DNA of 13,664 nt from Dehalococcoidia bacterium (GTDB taxonomy: Bacteria > Chloroflexota > Dehalococcoidia > Lucifugimonadales > UBA3495). Of the stretch, positions 1-13,412 are shown in pieces; position 1 is the stretch's first letter, and each line of letters starts with the position of its first letter. The DNA lies in NCBI GenBank assembly GCA_030740155.1, contig JASLXV010000061.1, positions 1 through 13,664 of the forward strand, written 5' to 3'. Under the pieces are notes generated by a model. The model did no database searches. It saw nothing but the letters and a program-made list of their open reading frames with translations, and was not told the DNA's origin. Position numbers and translations under genes: made by a program.

Positions 1-211
1 AAGCCTCGACGTGCTCCCGCCGTATATTGGCCACGTCCTGCGGCATCCCTTGACTGGCGACGAACCGGGCGAACTGGCGCACCGCTTCGGTGTAGGTCTC
101 CTGGGTCCTCGGGCTCAAGTTCTCCGCCCGGAGATGACGGCAAAAGGAAGCCATATTAACAGCCAGGTCACCGCCTGCTATAATTGCCATCGGAGAAGCC
201 GTTTCAACCAT
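1..211 (-). CDS. Tyrosine recombinase/integrase, N-terminal core-binding (SAM-like) domain; partial, runs off the left edge
   Basis: Manual translation from ATG at 211: MVETASPMAIIAGGDLAVNMASFCRHLRAENLSPRTQETYTEAVRQFARFVASQGMPQDVANIRREHVEA. This fits the F..HL.AE..SP.T..TY...V..F..F pattern of XerC/XerD/phage integrase N-termini. SD GGTGGAG lies upstream. Not in the ORF track because there is no stop in the window; catalytic residues are not visible. Confidence 0.85.
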   Translation of the reverse strand, partial: MVETASPMAIIAGGDLAVNMASFCRHLRAENLSPRTQETYTEAVRQFARFVASQGMPQDVANIRREHVEA

Positions 212-288
212 GATTCACTCCACCACGATCCGCTCAATGATTTGTACAGTAATGTGCTGACCTAATCATGATACCGCTTAAAAATTGT

Positions 289-368
289 CCAGTTATCTGC
301 TTTCCTAGCATTGTAGCACATGCCAAACCAGGCAGTCAACCAGTTATGTGCTGTCCTTAGCTAGGAAA
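289..368. repeat. Imperfect direct repeat plus nested inverted repeats around the integrase promoter
   Basis: Direct: CCAGTTATCTGCTTTCCTAGC (289-309) vs CCAGTTATGTGCTGTCCTTAGC (340-361). Inverted: TTTCCTAGC (301-309)/GCTAGGAAA (360-368) and AGCACAT (315-321)/ATGTGCT (346-352). Confidence 0.7.
310..339 (-). promoter_or_regulatory. Sigma70-type promoter for the integrase
   Basis: Minus strand TTGACT (339-334), 18 nt, TACAAT (315-310), with an extended -10 (TGC-TACAAT). Confidence 0.65.
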
Positions 369-373
369 TACGT

Positions 374-448
374 GGGGGTGTAGCTCAGCGGGAGAGCACC
401 TGCTTTGCATGCAGGGGGCCAAGGGTTCGATTCCCTTCACCTCCACCA
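374..448 (+). tRNA. tRNA-Ala(TGC)
   Basis: Acceptor stem GGGGGTG/CACCTCC with the G3:U70 Ala determinant, D-stem GCTC/GAGC, anticodon arm CCTGC-TT-TGC-AT-GCAGG, T-arm AAGGG-TTCGATT-CCCTT, discriminator A and encoded CCA. Confidence 0.98.
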
Positions 449-7998: not shown

Positions 7999-8027
7999 AG
8001 TGTAACGAAGAAGGGCTACCCGGTCAA
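7999..8027 (-). promoter_or_regulatory. Sigma70-type promoter for the SDR
   Basis: Minus strand TTGACC (8027-8022), 17 nt, TACACT (8004-7999). Confidence 0.6.
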
Positions 8028-8199: not shown

Positions 8200-8228
8200 T
8201 TGACAGCTTGTGGCCTTGGCCATACACT
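8200..8228 (+). promoter_or_regulatory. Sigma70-type promoter for the selenoprotein gene
   Basis: TTGACA (8200-8205), 17 nt, TACACT (8223-8228); palindrome TGGCC-TT-GGCCA (8211-8222) in the spacer. Confidence 0.7.
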
Positions 8229-8291
8229 CGGGTCCGTTAGGGCCGGTGTCTCCAATGGATGCCGCAACCCTTAGCCTGGGGAGGTGGAGCT

Positions 8292-9975
8292 ATGGCAACG
8301 TTACGGGTTCTGAATCCGGTGGCCGGCAAGCGGACGGACAACAAGAGCCGTCTCGCTCGGCGCGTCGGCGGCTTCGAGGGAAAGGTGATCGGCCTCTACG
8401 ACAACCGCAAACCCCACGGTGGGGTGGTGCTGGAGAGGCTGACGGGGCACTTGACCAGCCGGTTCCGGGACATCGAGGTGCGCCAGTACGTGGGCTCCAT
8501 CGGAGCAAGGGCCGTCGCTACCCCGGAGGACGCCGAGCGCATGGCCAGTGAATGCGACGCCGTCATCGGCGTCCGAGCCGATTGAGGGGGCTGTACGTCG
8601 TGGCTGGCCCACGACATGTCCCTGGTGGAGCAACGCGGGGTGCCGACCGTAAGCATAGTTTCCGGCGGCTTTGAAGAAGCCTGGCGCCGGAGCGCCGCGG
8701 CCTATGGCTTGGCGACGCTGCCCATGGTGGTGATCCCGCGGGTCATCACGAACCAACCCGCGGCCGACATCGACGCGATGGTGGATGCCAGCATGGAAGA
8801 ACTCATCTCCAGCCTCGCCGAGCCCGTCGAGGCCGGCCCCGTCATTGAGGAACTGGTGCCCCAAGCGGAGACCATCGACATCAAGGGCGACGACCTGCTG
8901 GACGCCTTCCACCGGATGAACGGCCTGTTCCTGGAGTATGAGTGGAGCGACGGCCTGCCCCTGGTGCCGCCGGCGCCCGAGCTTGTGGAACGGATGCTGA
9001 AGGCAACGGGTCGAGACCCTCAGGAAGTAGTCGCCGTCCTGGAACCCACCTTTGGCCTGGCCACCGTCGAGAAGATCGCCATCAACGCGGCCATGGCCGG
9101 CTGCAAGCCTGAGCATCTGCCCGTCCTCATCGCGGCGGTGCAGGCGATAGCGTCGCCTCCCTTCATGATGCGCGACGCCGCCGTCTCCACGGGCTCTCGC
9201 TCGCCCTTGCTGGTCGTCAACGGTCCCATCGCCAAGCGGCTGGGGCTCAACAGCGGAGCATGCGCCCTGCCCCGGCGCTCCTTCCTACGCGAACACGGTC
9301 ATCGGAAGGGCCCTGCGCCTCATCTACATGAACATCGCGGGGGTTTACGCGGGCGAGACCGATCCCAATACCACCGGTCTCCCCACCAAGTACAGCCTGT
9401 GTGTGGCGGAGAACGAGGACGCCAGCCCCTGGGACCCGTACCACGTGGAGATGGGGTTTGACTGTGACGTCAGCACGGTTACTGTGAAGACCGTCTACGG
9501 CTGCACCGAGACCCACGACAACAAGAGCACCGCGCCGGAGATGCTGGCGGACCTGGGAGTGGAGGCGGCCCGGTACATCGGAAGCGCCGGGATCGCCACC
9601 TGGCTCCTCGGAGGCACGGCGGACCCGGACACGAAACTGGAAGTGAACTCCCAGCAGGTGTGGCTGATGTGCCCGGACCACGCCCGGCTCATGGCCGACG
9701 CGGGTTGGAGCAAGCAGGACTTGAAGTCATACCTGTACCAGCACGCCACCCAGCCGGTGAAGGAGTTGCTTTCGCGCAAGGAGATCGTGAGGGACAGCCA
9801 CGGCAACTGGACCCAACGCGCTGAACTGCAATGGCTGGAAAACTACCCGGACCTGCAGGTGCCCACGGCCTCCAGCCCCGAAAGCTTCATCATCGTGGTG
9901 GTCGGAGGCCCCGGACCCAGGGGTGTCTACTTCTGGGGCAACGAGGAGGCGGTCACCGTTCCCATCGACGAGTAG
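8292..9975 (+). CDS. UGSC-family selenoprotein (U-G-G-C) fused to a C-terminal 'SDGLP..PP' domain; Sec at codon 98; apparent 2-nt frameshift at ~9269; ~561 aa when repaired
   Basis: SD GGAGGTGGAG and ATG at 8292. ...CDAVIGVRAD-TGA(8583-8585)-GGCTSWLAHDMSLVEQRGVPTV is in frame with ORF 8616 and matches the UGSC D-U-G-S-C-T..HD...E..G.P.V pattern. Restoring GG at 9269 gives GACALGPGAPSYANTVIGRALRLIYMN, continuous with ORF 9328-9975. Confidence 0.85.
8586..8622 (+). promoter_or_regulatory. Candidate bacterial SECIS element
   Basis: GTCGTGG (8597-8603)/CCACGAC (8609-8615) is a perfect 7-bp stem with loop CTGGC starting after 18 nt from the UGA; possible lower pairing GGGG/TCCC. Confidence 0.7.
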
Positions 9976-10042
9976 CGGGGGGTTGGCGATGGTGGGGGAC
10001 GGCCCGGCTAGTTCGCCCGCGTCACATCGGCGTGTACCTCTC

Positions 10043-10145
10043 CGTCATTCCGGCGAAGGCCGGAATCCAGGCGTGCCCCTCGCTACAAGGGCGATCGTCT
10101 CAGTGGAGCTTGCCCCTCTGGGTTCCGGCCTTCGCCGGAACGACG
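10043..10145. repeat. REP/REPIN-like inverted pair of palindromic units (GTCATTCC...GGAATCCA type)
   Basis: CGTCATTCCGGCGAAGGCCGGAATCCAG (10043-10070) and CTGGGTTCCGGCCTTCGCCGGAACGACG (10118-10145) are 26/28 complementary, each with an internal hairpin; located between convergent genes. Confidence 0.85.
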
Positions 10146-10317
10146 CGGGGAATGCCATTCTCACGATGTTCCTTATCCCCGAGACAAAGACCTAAGCGCG
10201 ACTGCGCGGCTGGGATAGGAAATCAATCCGCGCCGGCGCAACCATTCTTCATGCAAGACCGGGCTCAAGACATCAGCTATCCGGTGACTACCGGCTTTGT
10301 TGAGTGTGTCCAGGGTA

Positions 10318-10359: not shown

Positions 10360-11502
10360 CTAATACCTCCCGTACTCCAGGGCTGAGTCGAACATGGCGA
10401 CGATGTTCTCCGGCGGCACGTCGGCCTGTATGTTGTGGACGGACGCCATGACGTAGCCGCCACCCGGCGCCAGGTCCCGCATCCTGGTCTTCACCTCGTT
10501 GCGGACGTCCTCCGGGGTGCCAGTGGGCAGCGCCCAGTGGGTGTCGATGGCGCCCCAGAAGCACAGGGAGTCGCCGAACTCAGCCTTGAGGCGTTGGGAG
10601 TCCATATCGTTGGCGGATACCTGCACCGGGTTTAGGGCATCGATGCCCACGTCTATCAGGTCCGGGATGATGCCGTAGACGGAACCGTCGCTGTGCATCA
10701 GCACCTTCGCCTTGGTCTTGCTCTTGATGGCCTCTACCAGGCGCCGGTGGTAGGGTTTGATCTTCTGTCGATACAGCTCAGGCCTCACGTAGGGGCGGTC
10801 CTGGAAACCCATGTCGTCGGGAAAAAGGACCACGTCCACGTATTCCCCAACCTCCTCCAGCAAGAACTCGGCGGTCCCGGCGGCCACCATGAGGGTGTGC
10901 TCCATGACGGCCTCCGCCAGCACCGGGTTGATCAGCAAGTCCTCCATCCACTCGGCGAAGCCCCTTACCCTCTGGCACTCGCGGACAATGGAGAAGGGCA
11001 AGCTCAGGACGATGGCGAAGTCCGTTTCCTCGCGAAGCTGGATGGCCCGTTCCTTGAGGCCCTTGATGCGGCCCGGGTCTTTGGGGTCCGGCCAGGTGTA
11101 TTTCTCCAGGTCGGATAGCGCCGGTTCCTTCGCTTGAAAGGGGCCGGCGGTGTTGATGTAGTGGCCGCCTTCGGGCCTGACCCATACCACCCCCCACTCG
11201 TCCCGGTAGGAGTGCTCGTCCAACACCACCTCCGGCCTCATCTCGGATTTACCCAGGGGCAGGGGCCGGGTGTCGATGTCGAAGCGGGTAAGGATCGCCT
11301 CCGAAATTGCGGCCGTGAGGTTTGGGCTCCTGGGGCGAATCTCGCCCGCCTCATCCTGGAGGCCCAGGTGTTCCACCAGGTTGGTGTAGGCGGTGATATT
11401 GATGTTCGCCGGGCCGGCGCCTCCCAGGTCCCGCGGGACCCGGTCCGCCTCCTCATGGTTGAGCGCCTTGGTGACCCTCTCTCGGTGGGATAAGGCCGTC
11501 AT
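10360..11502 (-). CDS. Uroporphyrinogen decarboxylase (URO-D)/MtaA-CmuA superfamily protein, likely a corrinoid-dependent methyltransferase component
   Basis: SHRERVTKALNHEEADRVP, DEWGVVW, YTWPDP, PDDMGFQ, MHSDGSV, LNPVQVSA, CFWGAIDT, GTPEDV, APGGGYVMASVHNIQADVPPENIVAM; GGAGGG SD. Confidence 0.92.
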   Translation of the reverse strand: MTALSHRERVTKALNHEEADRVPRDLGGAGPANINITAYTNLVEHLGLQDEAGEIRPRSPNLTAAISEAILTRFDIDTRPLPLGKSEMRPEVVLDEHSYRDEWGVVWVRPEGGHYINTAGPFQAKEPALSDLEKYTWPDPKDPGRIKGLKERAIQLREETDFAIVLSLPFSIVRECQRVRGFAEWMEDLLINPVLAEAVMEHTLMVAAGTAEFLLEEVGEYVDVVLFPDDMGFQDRPYVRPELYRQKIKPYHRRLVEAIKSKTKAKVLMHSDGSVYGIIPDLIDVGIDALNPVQVSANDMDSQRLKAEFGDSLCFWGAIDTHWALPTGTPEDVRNEVKTRMRDLAPGGGYVMASVHNIQADVPPENIVAMFDSALEYGRY

Positions 11503-11543
11503 GTCGAATTCCCTCCATCCACCGGGTTAGCCCCGGGGCTTGT

Positions 11544-12185
11544 TCACGAGGCGGTGACGCCAATCAGCGCCTTGGCCCGCTCCACCGCGGAGGCCGCTTC
11601 GGGGGCGTAGCCGTCGGCCCCGATCTGGGAGGCGTATTTCTCGTTGACGGGGGCCCCGCCCACCAGCACCTTCACCTGCTGCCTGAGTTCATTCTCCTTC
11701 AGATGGTCGATGGTGGCCTTCATCATGGGCATGGTGGTGGTGAGCAGCGCGGAGAGGCACAGGATGTCGGCGTTTCCTTCCTCCACCGCCTTGGCGAAGG
11801 CCTCCGGCGTCACGTCGCTCCCCAGGTCGTTGACCTCGAACCCCGCTCCTTCAAGCATCATGGCCACCAGGTTCTTTCCAATGTCGTGTAGGTCGCCCTT
11901 GATGGTGCCGATGACCACCAGTCCCAGGGATGTGTTCAGCCGGTCGGCCAGAAGAGGCTTGAGGAGGGCCATGGACCATTTCATGGCCCTGGCGGCTACC
12001 AGCACCTCCGGCACGTAGTATTCGAAGTTCTTGAACTTCTCACCCACGACCGCCATTCCGGGCACCAATCCCTGGTTGACGATCTCCAACGGGTCCATGT
12101 TCTCGGCCAGGGCCTGCTGGGTCCAAGTCTCGGCGGCTTTGGCGTCACCCTGGATGATGTGGTTACTCAACTCGCTGATGTCCAC
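11544..12185 (-). CDS. Corrinoid (cobalamin-binding) protein, MtaC/MetH B12-domain family
   Basis: Four-helix cap (GLVPGMAVVGEKFKNFEYYVPEVLVAARAMK), DxHxxG motif GDLHDIGKNLV, LSALLTTTM, VLVGGAPV, IGADGY; GTG start with AGGAGG SD. Confidence 0.96.
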   Translation of the reverse strand: MDISELSNHIIQGDAKAAETWTQQALAENMDPLEIVNQGLVPGMAVVGEKFKNFEYYVPEVLVAARAMKWSMALLKPLLADRLNTSLGLVVIGTIKGDLHDIGKNLVAMMLEGAGFEVNDLGSDVTPEAFAKAVEEGNADILCLSALLTTTMPMMKATIDHLKENELRQQVKVLVGGAPVNEKYASQIGADGYAPEAASAVERAKALIGVTAS

Positions 12186-12287
12186 GGTTGACCTCCTAAA
12201 TTGTGGTAGGCCGAAAAAGGTGTCCCGGAGCCCCTGCCGGCCGGTCGCCGGGTCCGGCCCGCCGTTGCGGGTGGGGCACTCCGGTGG

Positions 12288-13412
12288 TTACATCGTTATG
12301 GGGTATTTGCCGTACTCTTCCACCAACTCGCCAACGCGGATCACCCTTGAGAGTTTGGATGGGCCGGTCACGTTGTCGGCCACGCCAAGGATAAAGGCGT
12401 CGCCGGGGGCAATGGTCCTGAAGAGGTCCACCATGTACTCCTCGAACTCCTCATCCGAGACCAGGTCCTCCAGGATGGTGGAAGGCACCCCGCCCCAGAT
12501 GATCATGCTCGTTCCCCAGGCCTCGCGGGCCTCCTTTAGCGTGCAGTTTACCATCGGGGCCGTGGTGAAACACTCCACCATATCGTACCCGGCATCCGCG
12601 AAATGGCGCAGAATCTTCCGGCTGTCGTTGTCGGCATGGTGAACCAGTACCTTGTCGTGCCGGTGGAGCAGCTCGGCAAACTCTTTAATGTAGGGAGTGA
12701 TGTACTGCTCGAACAGCCGGGGAGGCGTTATCTGGGTGTCGTAATGGGCCCCGTGGCGGAGGAGCCGGGCCGGCGACGCGGCCACTATCGGCCAGAGTTC
12801 CTTCCGGTGTTTCTGGGTCATCACCTCGAAGAGCTGCTCCACCTTGTCCTGGTGGTCCACCAGGTCGTAGTACCCTTTCTCGTAGCCGGCCAAGTGCTCC
12901 AGGTAATCGTAGAAGGGGGACTCACCGGTGACGACCATCGGGTAACCGTCCTCTCCTATCTCTTCCTCGTAGGCCAGGTATTCCTCGTAGCAAGGGTAAT
13001 ACTCGGTGTTCTCAGCGATGTACATCATCACGTCGTAATCTTCGGGTGTCTTCAGCGGCCTCTCCGTGTCCAGGGGCGCGATACCGGCCTGGTCCAACTC
13101 CGGCGTCCTCTTCTTTCGGGAGGTGAGGGTGCCCACCGGGGTGATGTGCTCGGTGACAATCTCCATGCCTTCTCGCCGGACCACCGTGTCCACGTTCCGG
13201 CACCTGGTGGTGTAGACCCGCCCGTCCCGGGCCGGGTTACCCATCCCCAAGTCGCGCTCAATGTCCCTGAGCCGCCAGTTGGTGTACTTTTCGGGAAGCG
13301 TGCCCCGGTTCCGGTGGTAGAGCCACCACAGCTGGAGGCGGGGAATCCACGGTATGCGGTCAGGGCTCTTGCCGTCCATGATCGCCAGAATCCGCTCTCG
13401 GTTGGTCATCAT
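12288..13412 (-). CDS. Second URO-D/MtaA-CmuA superfamily protein
   Basis: MTNRERILAIMDGKSPDRIPW, TPVGTL, IGEDG, ITPPRLFEQYITPY, HHADND, IIWGGVPS, APGDAFILGVADNV. Confidence 0.88.
   Translation of the reverse strand: MMTNRERILAIMDGKSPDRIPWIPRLQLWWLYHRNRGTLPEKYTNWRLRDIERDLGMGNPARDGRVYTTRCRNVDTVVRREGMEIVTEHITPVGTLTSRKKRTPELDQAGIAPLDTERPLKTPEDYDVMMYIAENTEYYPCYEEYLAYEEEIGEDGYPMVVTGESPFYDYLEHLAGYEKGYYDLVDHQDKVEQLFEVMTQKHRKELWPIVAASPARLLRHGAHYDTQITPPRLFEQYITPYIKEFAELLHRHDKVLVHHADNDSRKILRHFADAGYDMVECFTTAPMVNCTLKEAREAWGTSMIIWGGVPSTILEDLVSDEEFEEYMVDLFRTIAPGDAFILGVADNVTGPSKLSRVIRVGELVEEYGKYPITM

What the first reader, a model, noticed from the sequence alone, without database searches (positions are those of the whole stretch)
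8292..9975. Hidden fused selenoprotein: three ORFs form one UGSC-type gene with a U-G-G-C motif and a SECIS-like hairpin
Seen: the TGA ending ORF 8259-8585 is in frame with ORF 8616. The bridge reads AD-*-GGCTSWLAHD, with no SD before the ATG at 8616, and a 7-bp hairpin follows the TGA. Known: UGSC-family proteins are bacterial selenoproteins of unknown function with a UxxC motif. Inferred: this is a UGGC variant fused to the SDGLP..PP/MAGC.P/AENE..SPW domain, giving a ~561-aa thiol/selenol enzyme that pipelines would split into hypotheticals. It also implies Sec machinery in this organism.
Basis: partly seen in the sequence, partly recalled or inferred. Interest (0 to 1): 0.8.

Follow-up and report, generated by a model that had tools for sequence, protein, structure and literature searches.

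The report
Broken copy of UGSC selenoprotein fusion
This gene very likely encodes a selenocysteine protein of the known but functionally unsolved UGSC family fused to its known partner domain, but this copy carries a real two-base deletion that likely inactivates it, and intact relatives likely work as thioredoxin-fed selenium reductases.

Summary
The TGA at 8583-8585 very likely encodes selenocysteine (U98-G-G-C101). Pfam UGSC spans it, the genome has selA/B/C/D, 21 of 26 full-length homologs have Cys there, and a conserved hairpin follows. The fusion to the C-terminal 'Unknown_1' domain was published in 2008, U-G-G-C is common, and this scan found the family at least eight times on other DNA.

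Two G's are missing after 9268, so the window encodes 389 aa, not 561. The deletion is real: of four marine metagenomes it dominates three (one polymorphic), and the fourth is intact.

Added here:
- The genome holds 28 UGSC paralogs, all with TGA and all paired with Unknown_1.
- The UGSC domain models as flavodoxin-like, not thioredoxin-like, and resembles the GrdB Sec region (HHalign 89%).
- Sec98 is predicted at the domain interface.
- 73 of 80 thioredoxin-fused Unknown_1 loci also carry UGSC.

Best reading: a likely null allele of a thioredoxin-fed, Sec-dependent reductase of unknown substrate. New member of a known kind.

The parts
8200..8228 (+). sigma-70-like promoter match TTGACA-17-TACACT (consensus match only)
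   Evidence: 10 of 12 matches; 2 found in the region vs 0.2 expected
8280..8285 (+). Shine-Dalgarno-like GGAGGT, 6 nt before ATG 8292
   Evidence: sequence; homologs align from this Met
8292..8831 (+). UGSC domain (residues 1-180), predicted flavodoxin/receiver-like parallel alpha/beta fold
   Evidence: Pfam PF24696 112.5 bits vs cut-off 25, residues 6-175 across the TGA; NF041046 97.8 bits, below its cut-off of 125; fold of the intact ortholog
8583..8585 (+). in-frame TGA, likely selenocysteine 98 of U-G-G-C
   Evidence: Cys in 21 of 26 full-length homologs; TGA in 28 of 28 own paralogs; selABCD present; no variant at this codon in 4 runs
8597..8615 (+). SECIS-like hairpin, +12 to +30 after the TGA, 7 bp stem, loop CUGGC
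   Evidence: at least 7 of 8 pairs in 51 of 62 TGA homologs vs 0 of 10 Cys homologs
8883..9269 (+). first part of the 'Unknown_1' domain (WSDGLP, TVEKIA.NA.MAGC, NGP motifs), in frame with the UGSC domain
9268..9270 (+). site of a 2-nt (GG) deletion relative to intact alleles; a real segregating frameshift
9271..9975 (+). rest of the 'Unknown_1' domain, out of frame in this allele (N337, R342, N350, E376, PEH motifs); stop TAG 9973-9975

Best explanation
The window holds a frameshifted, likely non-functional allele of a gene whose TGA likely encodes selenocysteine, and whose intact form is predicted to be a two-module selenium-dependent reductase (UGSC domain plus Unknown_1 domain). SHOWN: in-frame TGA in the UGSC motif; Sec machinery in the genome; fusion; real deletion; pairing of the two modules. 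INFERRED: (1) SelB and the +12..+30 hairpin recode UGA. (2) Unknown_1 binds a small organic substrate in the cleft it forms with the UGSC domain. (3) The Sec98 selenolate attacks the substrate, as the related GrdB/PrdB Sec does in reductive carbon-heteroatom cleavage. (4) Cys101 resolves the adduct to a selenenylsulfide. (5) Thioredoxin and an NADPH thioredoxin-reductase-like flavoprotein re-reduce it. (6) The 28 paralogs handle different substrates, and this one is under relaxed selection. My odds by step: Sec gene 0.95; deletion real 0.9; allele null 0.8; thiol-relay-fed Sec redox enzyme 0.6; GrdB-like direct attack on a substrate 0.35.
For: Sec: (all 150 listed of 222 PF24696 matches in 41 genomes contain an in-frame TGA). 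Deletion real: contigs of X1 and X2 match the window at 9268; X7, not flagged as a possible source, holds both forms at 14.7x vs 4.3x + 2.8x; X13 is intact; congener G001 intact; 13 of 15 listed members of a 24-member cluster share the frameshift tail; 7 alleles at least 99% alike are intact. Null: the break precedes near-invariant N337, R342, N350, E376. Pairing: each of 28 UGSC domains lies in or beside an Unknown_1 gene, 11 fused. Intact ortholog model pTM 0.93. The halves of a Cys homolog score 0.88 vs best control 0.00 (the mark was reached by 116 of 157 solved complexes and 2 of 215 mismatched pairs; runs agree in at least 92% of contacts; partner pLDDT at least 92). Cys98-Ser100 and conserved S300-T301, N349, G356-M360 and W439 are listed in the interface. 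Thiol relay: Unknown_1 is fused to a C-x-T-C thioredoxin-like domain (118 of 119), and 73 of 80 such loci also carry a UGSC gene, 67 with U-G-S-C read in full. Unknown_1 is fused to thioredoxin-reductase-like PF07992/PF00070 domains in 4 of 22 long homologs. GrdB kinship: HHalign 89%, P 2e-6, 56 columns centred on the Sec, vs 44% for the best of 58 unrelated families. Sec is kept without the second Cys in one paralog (U-G-G-G, C27). Paralog expansion: 33 members, fifth largest family in my clustering, beside typical catabolic families (family names from recall).
Against: The loop CUGGC has no G in its first two positions, which fails one rule of the bacterial SECIS model. The closest full-length homologs have T-G-G-S or S-G-G-A (5 of 26) and fall in the window's own subclade (98% SH-aLRT, quick tree), so the redox pair is dispensable in some relatives. 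The GrdB match is short and uses 6 GrdB sequences from this genome; Pfam GRDB does not hit the protein. Unknown_1 has no clear fold match (best Z 4.8), so substrate binding there is inferred. The complex job used halves of one natural fusion, which tend to pass, and does not list Cys98 among its top 25 contact pairs. Neighbouring genes are not conserved beyond the congener. X1 and X2 may be the source of the window.
Confidence: 0.55

Rival explanations
1. The UGSC domain is only an electron shuttle or peroxide/disulfide reductase. It passes electrons to a separate active site in Unknown_1 (e.g. conserved Cys273/Cys373), or protects it, without touching the substrate.
For: U/C-x-x-C motif; C273 in 63 of 67 and C373 in 58 of 67 across subfamilies; thioredoxin and TrxR fusions; PMC2398784 suggests a redox role.
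Against: C272 and C372 (P0021 numbering) are not among the listed interface residues while C98 is, though unlisted means uncertain. A thioredoxin domain does not replace UGSC: both occur together in 73 of 80 loci. The fold is not thioredoxin-like.
Confidence: 0.22
2. A metal or Fe-S protein (hydratase/lyase type) in which Sec98/Cys101 and Unknown_1 residues are ligands.
For: Weak agreement of two searches on the class I fumarate hydratase alpha subunit 7xky_A (Foldseek E 7.7e-3, prob 0.28; VIA Z 4.4, rmsd 5.3, 184 aligned). The top N-domain match is a chain of the MCR activation complex (8s7v_H, Z 11.0, rmsd 3.2, 131 aligned).
Against: Both scores lie in the range of common arrangements, and many unrelated Rossmann-like chains tie within 1-2 Z. 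Only two Cys are broadly conserved in Unknown_1.
Confidence: 0.1
3. The deletion allele still makes full-length protein by +1 ribosomal slippage at CCC-C followed by CGG (ctg ccc cgg), or works as a split gene restarting at ATG 9328.
For: The sequence at 9268-9276 is a CCC-C site (slippage-prone by recall, not tested). The deletion allele is common, on several SNP backgrounds.
Against: Intact alleles co-exist. Other independent breaks occur in this gene and in a sister species (near residues 224 and 304). A restart at 9328 would skip N337 and R342.
Confidence: 0.07
4. The frameshift is an assembly or sequencing error, and the gene is intact.
For: The deletion lies in a G run; the genome has 7.65% contamination; another paralog (C20:48950) is also frameshifted.
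Against: The same deletion appears in contigs of three runs from three studies, one of them not flagged as a possible source and holding both forms. The same truncated product is in NCBI, JGI, ENA and Logan records.
Confidence: 0.04
5. The TGA is a true stop (two genes or a nonsense pseudogene).
For: The hairpin is not significant in isolation; the loop is non-canonical.
Against: The Pfam domain spans the TGA; Cys homologs exist; TGA in 28 of 28 paralogs and in all 150 listed relatives' matches; selABCD present; the hairpin is stronger in TGA than in Cys genes.
Confidence: 0.02

Closest known systems
UGSC family (seleno)protein (Pfam PF24696; NCBIfam NF041046; 'UGSC-containing protein', PMC1976440, PMC2398784, PMC13188914)
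   Same: Domain matches PF24696 far above cut-off across the TGA; U-x-x-C at the same site; function uncharacterised.
   Different: Scores 97.8 bits vs the NF041046 cut-off of 125; U-G-G-C rather than U-G-S-C (a common variant); fused rather than stand-alone; this allele is frameshifted. [quoted passage not shown]
UGSC/Unknown_1 fusion (Zhang and Gladyshev 2008, PMC2398784, Fig. S1A)
   Same: The published Unknown_1 block (AVNGVMAGC.P.Y...NGP) corresponds by eye to the window's AINAAMAGCKPEH...NGP; same domain order.
   Different: In the passages and figure text I saw, no structure, GrdB link, thioredoxin-linked operon or paralog expansion is given.
Glycine/betaine reductase GrdB and D-proline reductase PrdB (PF07355)
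   Same: Sec followed by x-x-C, then a helix and an E..G.P.V motif; HHalign 89% over 56 columns; thioredoxin-linked context. GrdB binds substrate and has UxxCxxC (PMC13188914).
   Different: No PF07355 hit; no GrdB N-terminal region; the partner is Unknown_1, which hits no Pfam or NCBIfam family. It may work like GrdB but is not one; the genome has six separate full GrdB-like TGA genes.
Bacterial SECIS consensus (as given in PMC13188914)
   Same: 5-nt loop, 7-bp stem, 18 nt from UGA to loop, -12.4 kcal/mol.
   Different: No G in the first two loop positions in the minimum-energy fold; many paralogs have GUA or GUG loops at the same place.

Membership tests
UGSC family (Pfam PF24696) | Score above the Pfam gathering threshold | tested here: met
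   112.5 bits vs 25, residues 6-175
UGSC family (NCBIfam NF041046 equivalog) | Score above the curated cut-off of 125 | tested here: not met
   97.8 bits, E 5.6e-28, profile 2-145 of 147: a homolog below the equivalog cut-off
UGSC family | U/C-x-x-C motif at the family site | tested here: met
   U98-G-G-C101 aligns with C-G-S-C homologs
Bacterial selenoprotein | In-frame UGA aligned to conserved Cys in homologs | tested here: met
   21 of 26 full-length homologs have Cys; 10 Cys vs 78 TGA among 89 domains
Bacterial selenoprotein | selA, selB, selC, selD in the genome | tested here: met
   selA 548.6 bits, selB 322.8, selD 376.8 with its own TGA; tRNA-SeC on C96
Bacterial selenoprotein | SECIS stem-loop 16-37 nt after UGA, 4-16 bp, 3-9 nt loop, at most -7.5 kcal/mol | tested here: met
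   paralog mean 6.1 of 8 pairs vs at most 4.9 in 1000 synonymous recodings
Bacterial selenoprotein (canonical SECIS) | G in the first two loop positions | tested here: not met
   loop CUGGC. Non-canonical SECIS are common: 87.4% of BSepDB entries are canonical
Bacterial selenoprotein | Sec detected in the protein | not testable with these tools
   needs 75Se labelling or proteomics
UGSC/Unknown_1 fusion | Unknown_1 domain C-terminal to UGSC | tested here: met
UGSC/Unknown_1 fusion | Single open frame through both domains | tested here: not met
   2-nt deletion after 9268 in this allele; met in other alleles and in G001
GrdB/PrdB | PF07355 match | tested here: not met
   no hit at E 0.01
GrdB/PrdB | Homology of the Sec-bearing segment | tested here: inconclusive
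   HHalign 89%, 56 columns; best unrelated control 44%; no solved relative of a GrdB-like query (residues up to its TGA) found by sequence
Thioredoxin-fold oxidoreductase | Thioredoxin fold of the U-x-x-C domain | tested here: inconclusive
   the top 50 VIA rows and the listed Foldseek rows are Rossmann/flavodoxin/receiver-like, and no thioredoxin is listed; an unlisted family is not excluded

The most novel reading that the evidence does not exclude
UGSC plus Unknown_1 is an unrecognised, GrdB-related family of selenium-dependent reductive-cleavage enzymes: NADPH to TrxR to thioredoxin to U-x-x-C, acting on a substrate in a new-fold domain of about 4,700 clusters at 50% identity. This marine Dehalococcoidia genus has expanded it to 24-29 Sec-encoding copies, alongside its catabolic paralog families, to break down diverse dissolved organic compounds. 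Copies are gained and lost, and this one is caught decaying as a segregating frameshift.
Probability: 0.3. Interest if true: 0.75.

Novelty: new member of a known kind. Interest (0 to 1): 0.35.

Why it matters
As a gene call it is ordinary: a known selenoprotein family and a known fusion, and this copy is broken. The value lies in what the comparison adds to an open question. [quoted passage not shown] The work here gives a testable architecture: Sec at the interface with a large domain that has no clear fold match, a thioredoxin module in the same operon, and a GrdB-like Sec segment. One genus carries 24-29 copies that annotation splits at the TGA, so a large enzyme family of marine Dehalococcoidia is hidden from pangenome counts. 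Selenoprotein-rich Dehalococcoidia as such are already listed in BSepDB (46 and 49 genes, PMC13326102).

Tried and rejected
Structure and family searches:
- PDB sequence searches with the intact ortholog, its alignment and a GrdB-like protein found nothing.
- Pfam and NCBIfam give no family for Unknown_1.
- Fold searches of Unknown_1 alone gave no Z of 5 or more among 48,161 chains and no Foldseek hit at E 0.001. This does not prove a new fold.
- Rfam finds only a tRNA in the window.
- The ESM Atlas look-alike search was not obtained, so that comparison is open.

Ideas dropped:
- That thioredoxin replaces UGSC: both occur together.
- Substrate from neighbours: the adjacent corrinoid/MtaA-like cluster recurs only in the congener among 88 loci (one other locus has a corrinoid gene), and other neighbours vary.
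- Contamination as the cause of the 28 copies: paralog Unknown_1 domains are 33% identical at the median and 85% at most, and the congener has 24.
- Hairpin energy against shuffles is uninformative.

Limits of my own runs:
- The genome-wide TGA screen was insensitive (31 candidates, about 12 of the 28 UGSC sites recovered), so no selenoproteome total is claimed.
- In one search one own-genome row (C78) picked an upstream TGA by mistake and scored 3 of 8. It was left in, which lowers the mean.
- The tree is the quick tree, with SH-aLRT support only.

Literature: searches UGSC+selenoprotein, SAR202+selenocysteine, selenoproteome+Chloroflex, PrdB+GrdB+selenocysteine+structure, NF041046, SAR202+paralog+expansion and UGSC+GrdB. 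In the passages I read, none states a UGSC-GrdB relationship or the thioredoxin-Unknown_1-UGSC operon. Most subscription papers are not in the library.

Full report
OBSERVATION. From ATG 8292, preceded by GGAGGT at 8280-8285 and a promoter-like TTGACA-17-TACACT at 8200-8228, codon 98 is TGA (8583-8585), followed in frame by G-G-C-T-S-W-L-A-H-D-M. A 7-bp hairpin with loop CUGGC occupies 8597-8615. Read-through matches the family to residue 326 and then runs 63 aberrant residues to a stop, giving 389 aa. In intact fused paralogs (e.g. C77, C38, C69, C58, C30, C27) the two halves are one codon apart, whereas here they are one base apart. The congener G001 (88% nt identity) has two extra G's at this place and one 563-codon frame with the same TGA.

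IS THE TGA SELENOCYSTEINE? Very likely.
- Pfam PF24696 (UGSC) matches residues 6-175 across the TGA at 112.5 bits vs a cut-off of 25. NCBIfam NF041046 gives 97.8 bits, under its cut-off of 125.
- The genome has selA, selB and selD over their cut-offs and a tRNA-Sec.
- Of the best 120 of 1808 homologs of the intact ortholog, 26 are full length: 21 with C-x-x-C and 5 with T-G-G-S or S-G-G-A. Of the 94 shorter ones, 82 begin at the Met just after the TGA.
- All 28 UGSC domains that my HMM finds in this genome have TGA at the site (Pfam counts 29). All 150 listed of 222 Pfam matches in 41 related genomes contain an in-frame TGA.
- In 78 loci from GTDB genomes, 89 domains split 78 TGA, 10 Cys and 1 partial. 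By my count 22 of the 78 read U-G-G-C, so the variant is common.

HAIRPIN. Alone it does not beat shuffles; 3.3% of synonymous recodings pair as well. Across relatives it is selected. At least 7 of 8 pairs (+12..+30) form in 51 of 62 distinct TGA homologs and 0 of 10 Cys homologs (kin are not independent). The 28 own rows average 6.1 pairs against a maximum of 4.9 in 1000 recodings, even with one mis-picked row left in. Pair +18/+24 is G-C in 67 and C-G in 17 of 90. It meets three of the four bacterial SECIS rules given in PMC13188914 (passages read) but lacks G in the first two loop positions.

IS THE FRAMESHIFT REAL? Yes.
- Laid on four of the 14 runs that hold half or more of the words, contigs of X1 and X2 (both possible sources, different studies) match the window at 9268. 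X7 holds the deletion form at 14.7x and GG forms at 4.3x and 2.8x. X13 has GG. None varies at the TGA.
- In the protein collection, 13 of 15 listed members of the 24-member cluster of the truncated ORF carry the same aberrant tail on several SNP backgrounds. Seven alleles at least 99% alike are intact. Other breaks occur near residue 224 and, in a sister species, near 304.
- The break falls before N337, R342, N350 and E376, which are conserved in 64-67 of 67 diverse Unknown_1 domains.
I infer a segregating null allele of a paralog under relaxed selection; +1 slippage at CCC-CGG is a low-odds alternative.

ORGANISM. A member of the window ORF's 90% cluster is named Dehalococcoidia bacterium, the DNA holders are marine metagenomes, and many of the related loci are Dehalococcoidia/Chloroflexota MAGs. 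SAR202 affiliation is my inference.

WHAT IS KNOWN. UGSC-containing protein is a catalogued selenoprotein of unknown function (PMC1976440, passages; PMC13188914, passages). PMC2398784 (passages; supplementary Fig. S1 as text) already reports the UGSC/Unknown_1 fusion, and its Unknown_1 block corresponds to the window's domain. I did not read its other three supplements. BSepDB (PMC13326102, passages) lists Dehalococcoidia with 49 and 46 selenoprotein genes in its top ten and does not mention UGSC in the main text; its supplements and database were not seen and may cover these paralogs. The SAR202 pangenome paper PMC6946804 has no occurrence of 'seleno' in its main text (term search only). This scan noted the family on other genomes at least eight times; these AI notes agree but are not independent evidence.

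ANATOMY. AlphaFold2 on the intact ortholog gives pLDDT 94 and pTM 0.93. Residues 26-182 match Rossmann/flavodoxin/receiver-like folds (best Z 11.0, rmsd 3.2, 131 aligned, with many near ties), and no thioredoxin is listed, against the 2008 guess of a Trx-like fold. Unknown_1 alone (pLDDT 94) has no match above Z 4.8; class I fumarate hydratase is a weak hit in both searches. It has 4,680 clusters at 50% identity. A profile of UGSC domains aligns to the Sec region of six GrdB-like genes from this genome at 89% probability over 56 columns. Of 60 control families, two are UGSC fragments; the best of the other 58 reached 44% and the next 19%. The two halves of the Cys homolog P0021 score 0.88 vs best control 0.00 (mark reached by 116 of 157 solved and 2 of 215 mismatched pairs; at least 92% contact agreement; partner pLDDT at least 92). 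Cys98-Ser100 and conserved S300-T301, N349, G356-M360 and W439 are among the interface residues. Halves of a fusion tend to pass, and the output does not show these residues touching each other.

CONTEXT. Each of the 28 UGSC domains is fused to (11) or lies next to (17) an Unknown_1 gene. Fused forms make one clade in a quick tree. The congener has 24 copies and the 23 other family genomes 2-12. In my clustering Unknown_1 is the fifth largest paralog family (33), after families of 87, 46, 45 and 39 members that I recognise as CoA-transferase III, enoyl-CoA hydratase, SDR and MFS. Neighbours vary and name no substrate. Elsewhere Unknown_1 is fused to thioredoxin-reductase-like flavoproteins (4 of 22 long homologs) and, in a very large subfamily, to a C-x-T-C thioredoxin-like domain (118 of 119). 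Of 80 loci of that subfamily, 73 also carry a UGSC gene, nearly always directly downstream, and 67 show U-G-S-C in full. Five of the seven without it end within 224 nt of the domain, and two lack it. So thioredoxin accompanies UGSC rather than replacing it.

MECHANISM. Most likely the intact protein is a Sec-dependent reductase: Unknown_1 holds a small organic substrate, Sec98 attacks it, Cys101 resolves, and thioredoxin/TrxR/NADPH recycles. Every chemical step is inferred. Against it: Sec/Cys-less homologs in the same subclade, a short GrdB match, no clear fold match for Unknown_1 and no substrate clue. Rivals are an electron-shuttle role (0.22), a metal/Fe-S role (0.10), rescue of the frameshift (0.07), assembly error (0.04) and a true stop (0.02).

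VERDICT. A correct Sec call on a known family and a known fusion, in a broken allele: new member of a known kind, interest 0.35. The thioredoxin-Unknown_1-UGSC architecture, the GrdB-like Sec segment and the 24-29-copy expansion make the family's function more testable (novel case probability 0.3, interest 0.75 if true).

Noticed in passing
G000 C69:143421-144458, C17:4866-5903, C54:16702-17733, C79:28949-29980, C91:9187-10227, C79:48036-49076, C59:42825-43223: Six full GrdB-like genes, each with TGA at about residue 346 (U-G-x-C, one U-G-T-S, one U-G-T-G), plus a partial match ending at U-P-R-C. With 28 UGSC and SelD, this gives at least 35 Sec genes.
   Followed up: partly
G000 C32 (-, near 113661), C74 (-, near 61407), C54 (+, near 23425), C95 (+, near 42306): Further in-frame TGA candidates with U-x-x-C or C-x-x-U motifs (peroxiredoxin-, AhpD- and thioredoxin-like by recall only).
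   Followed up: no
P0146-P0264; L103-L182: Thioredoxin-fused Unknown_1 proteins carry a G-C-G-S linker motif (114 of 119) that echoes U-G-S; a possible relay cysteine.
   Followed up: partly
L171:5382-5898, L182:1357-1876: UGSC genes split near the Sec position by a stop other than TGA or by a frame break.
   Followed up: no
P0007, P0009, P0015-P0017: Closest full-length homologs have T-G-G-S or S-G-G-A in place of U/C-x-x-C: redox-dead or repurposed forms in the window's subclade.
   Followed up: partly
G000 C20:48950-50564: A second fused paralog is also frameshifted within Unknown_1; not checked against reads.
   Followed up: partly
window 10020-10150: REP-like palindromic repeat after the gene: folds at -74.9 kcal/mol, 112 blastn hits on 38 contigs, summed contig depth over 1000x.
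   Followed up: partly
window 10360-13412 (-): Two URO-D/MtaA-like methyltransferase genes flanking a corrinoid protein gene; adjacent to this gene also in the congener G001.
   Followed up: partly
window 2-445: A tRNA at 374-445 beside a minus-strand ORF running off the window start that looks integrase-like by recall; possible integration site.
   Followed up: no
window 7999-8027 (-): Second promoter-like match, divergent, upstream of the SDR gene.
   Followed up: no
G000 C62:31155-39481; P0283, P0297, P0313, P0338, P0374: Four tandem stand-alone Unknown_1 genes of two alternating types, and database proteins with two Unknown_1 stretches, hint at dimers.
   Followed up: no
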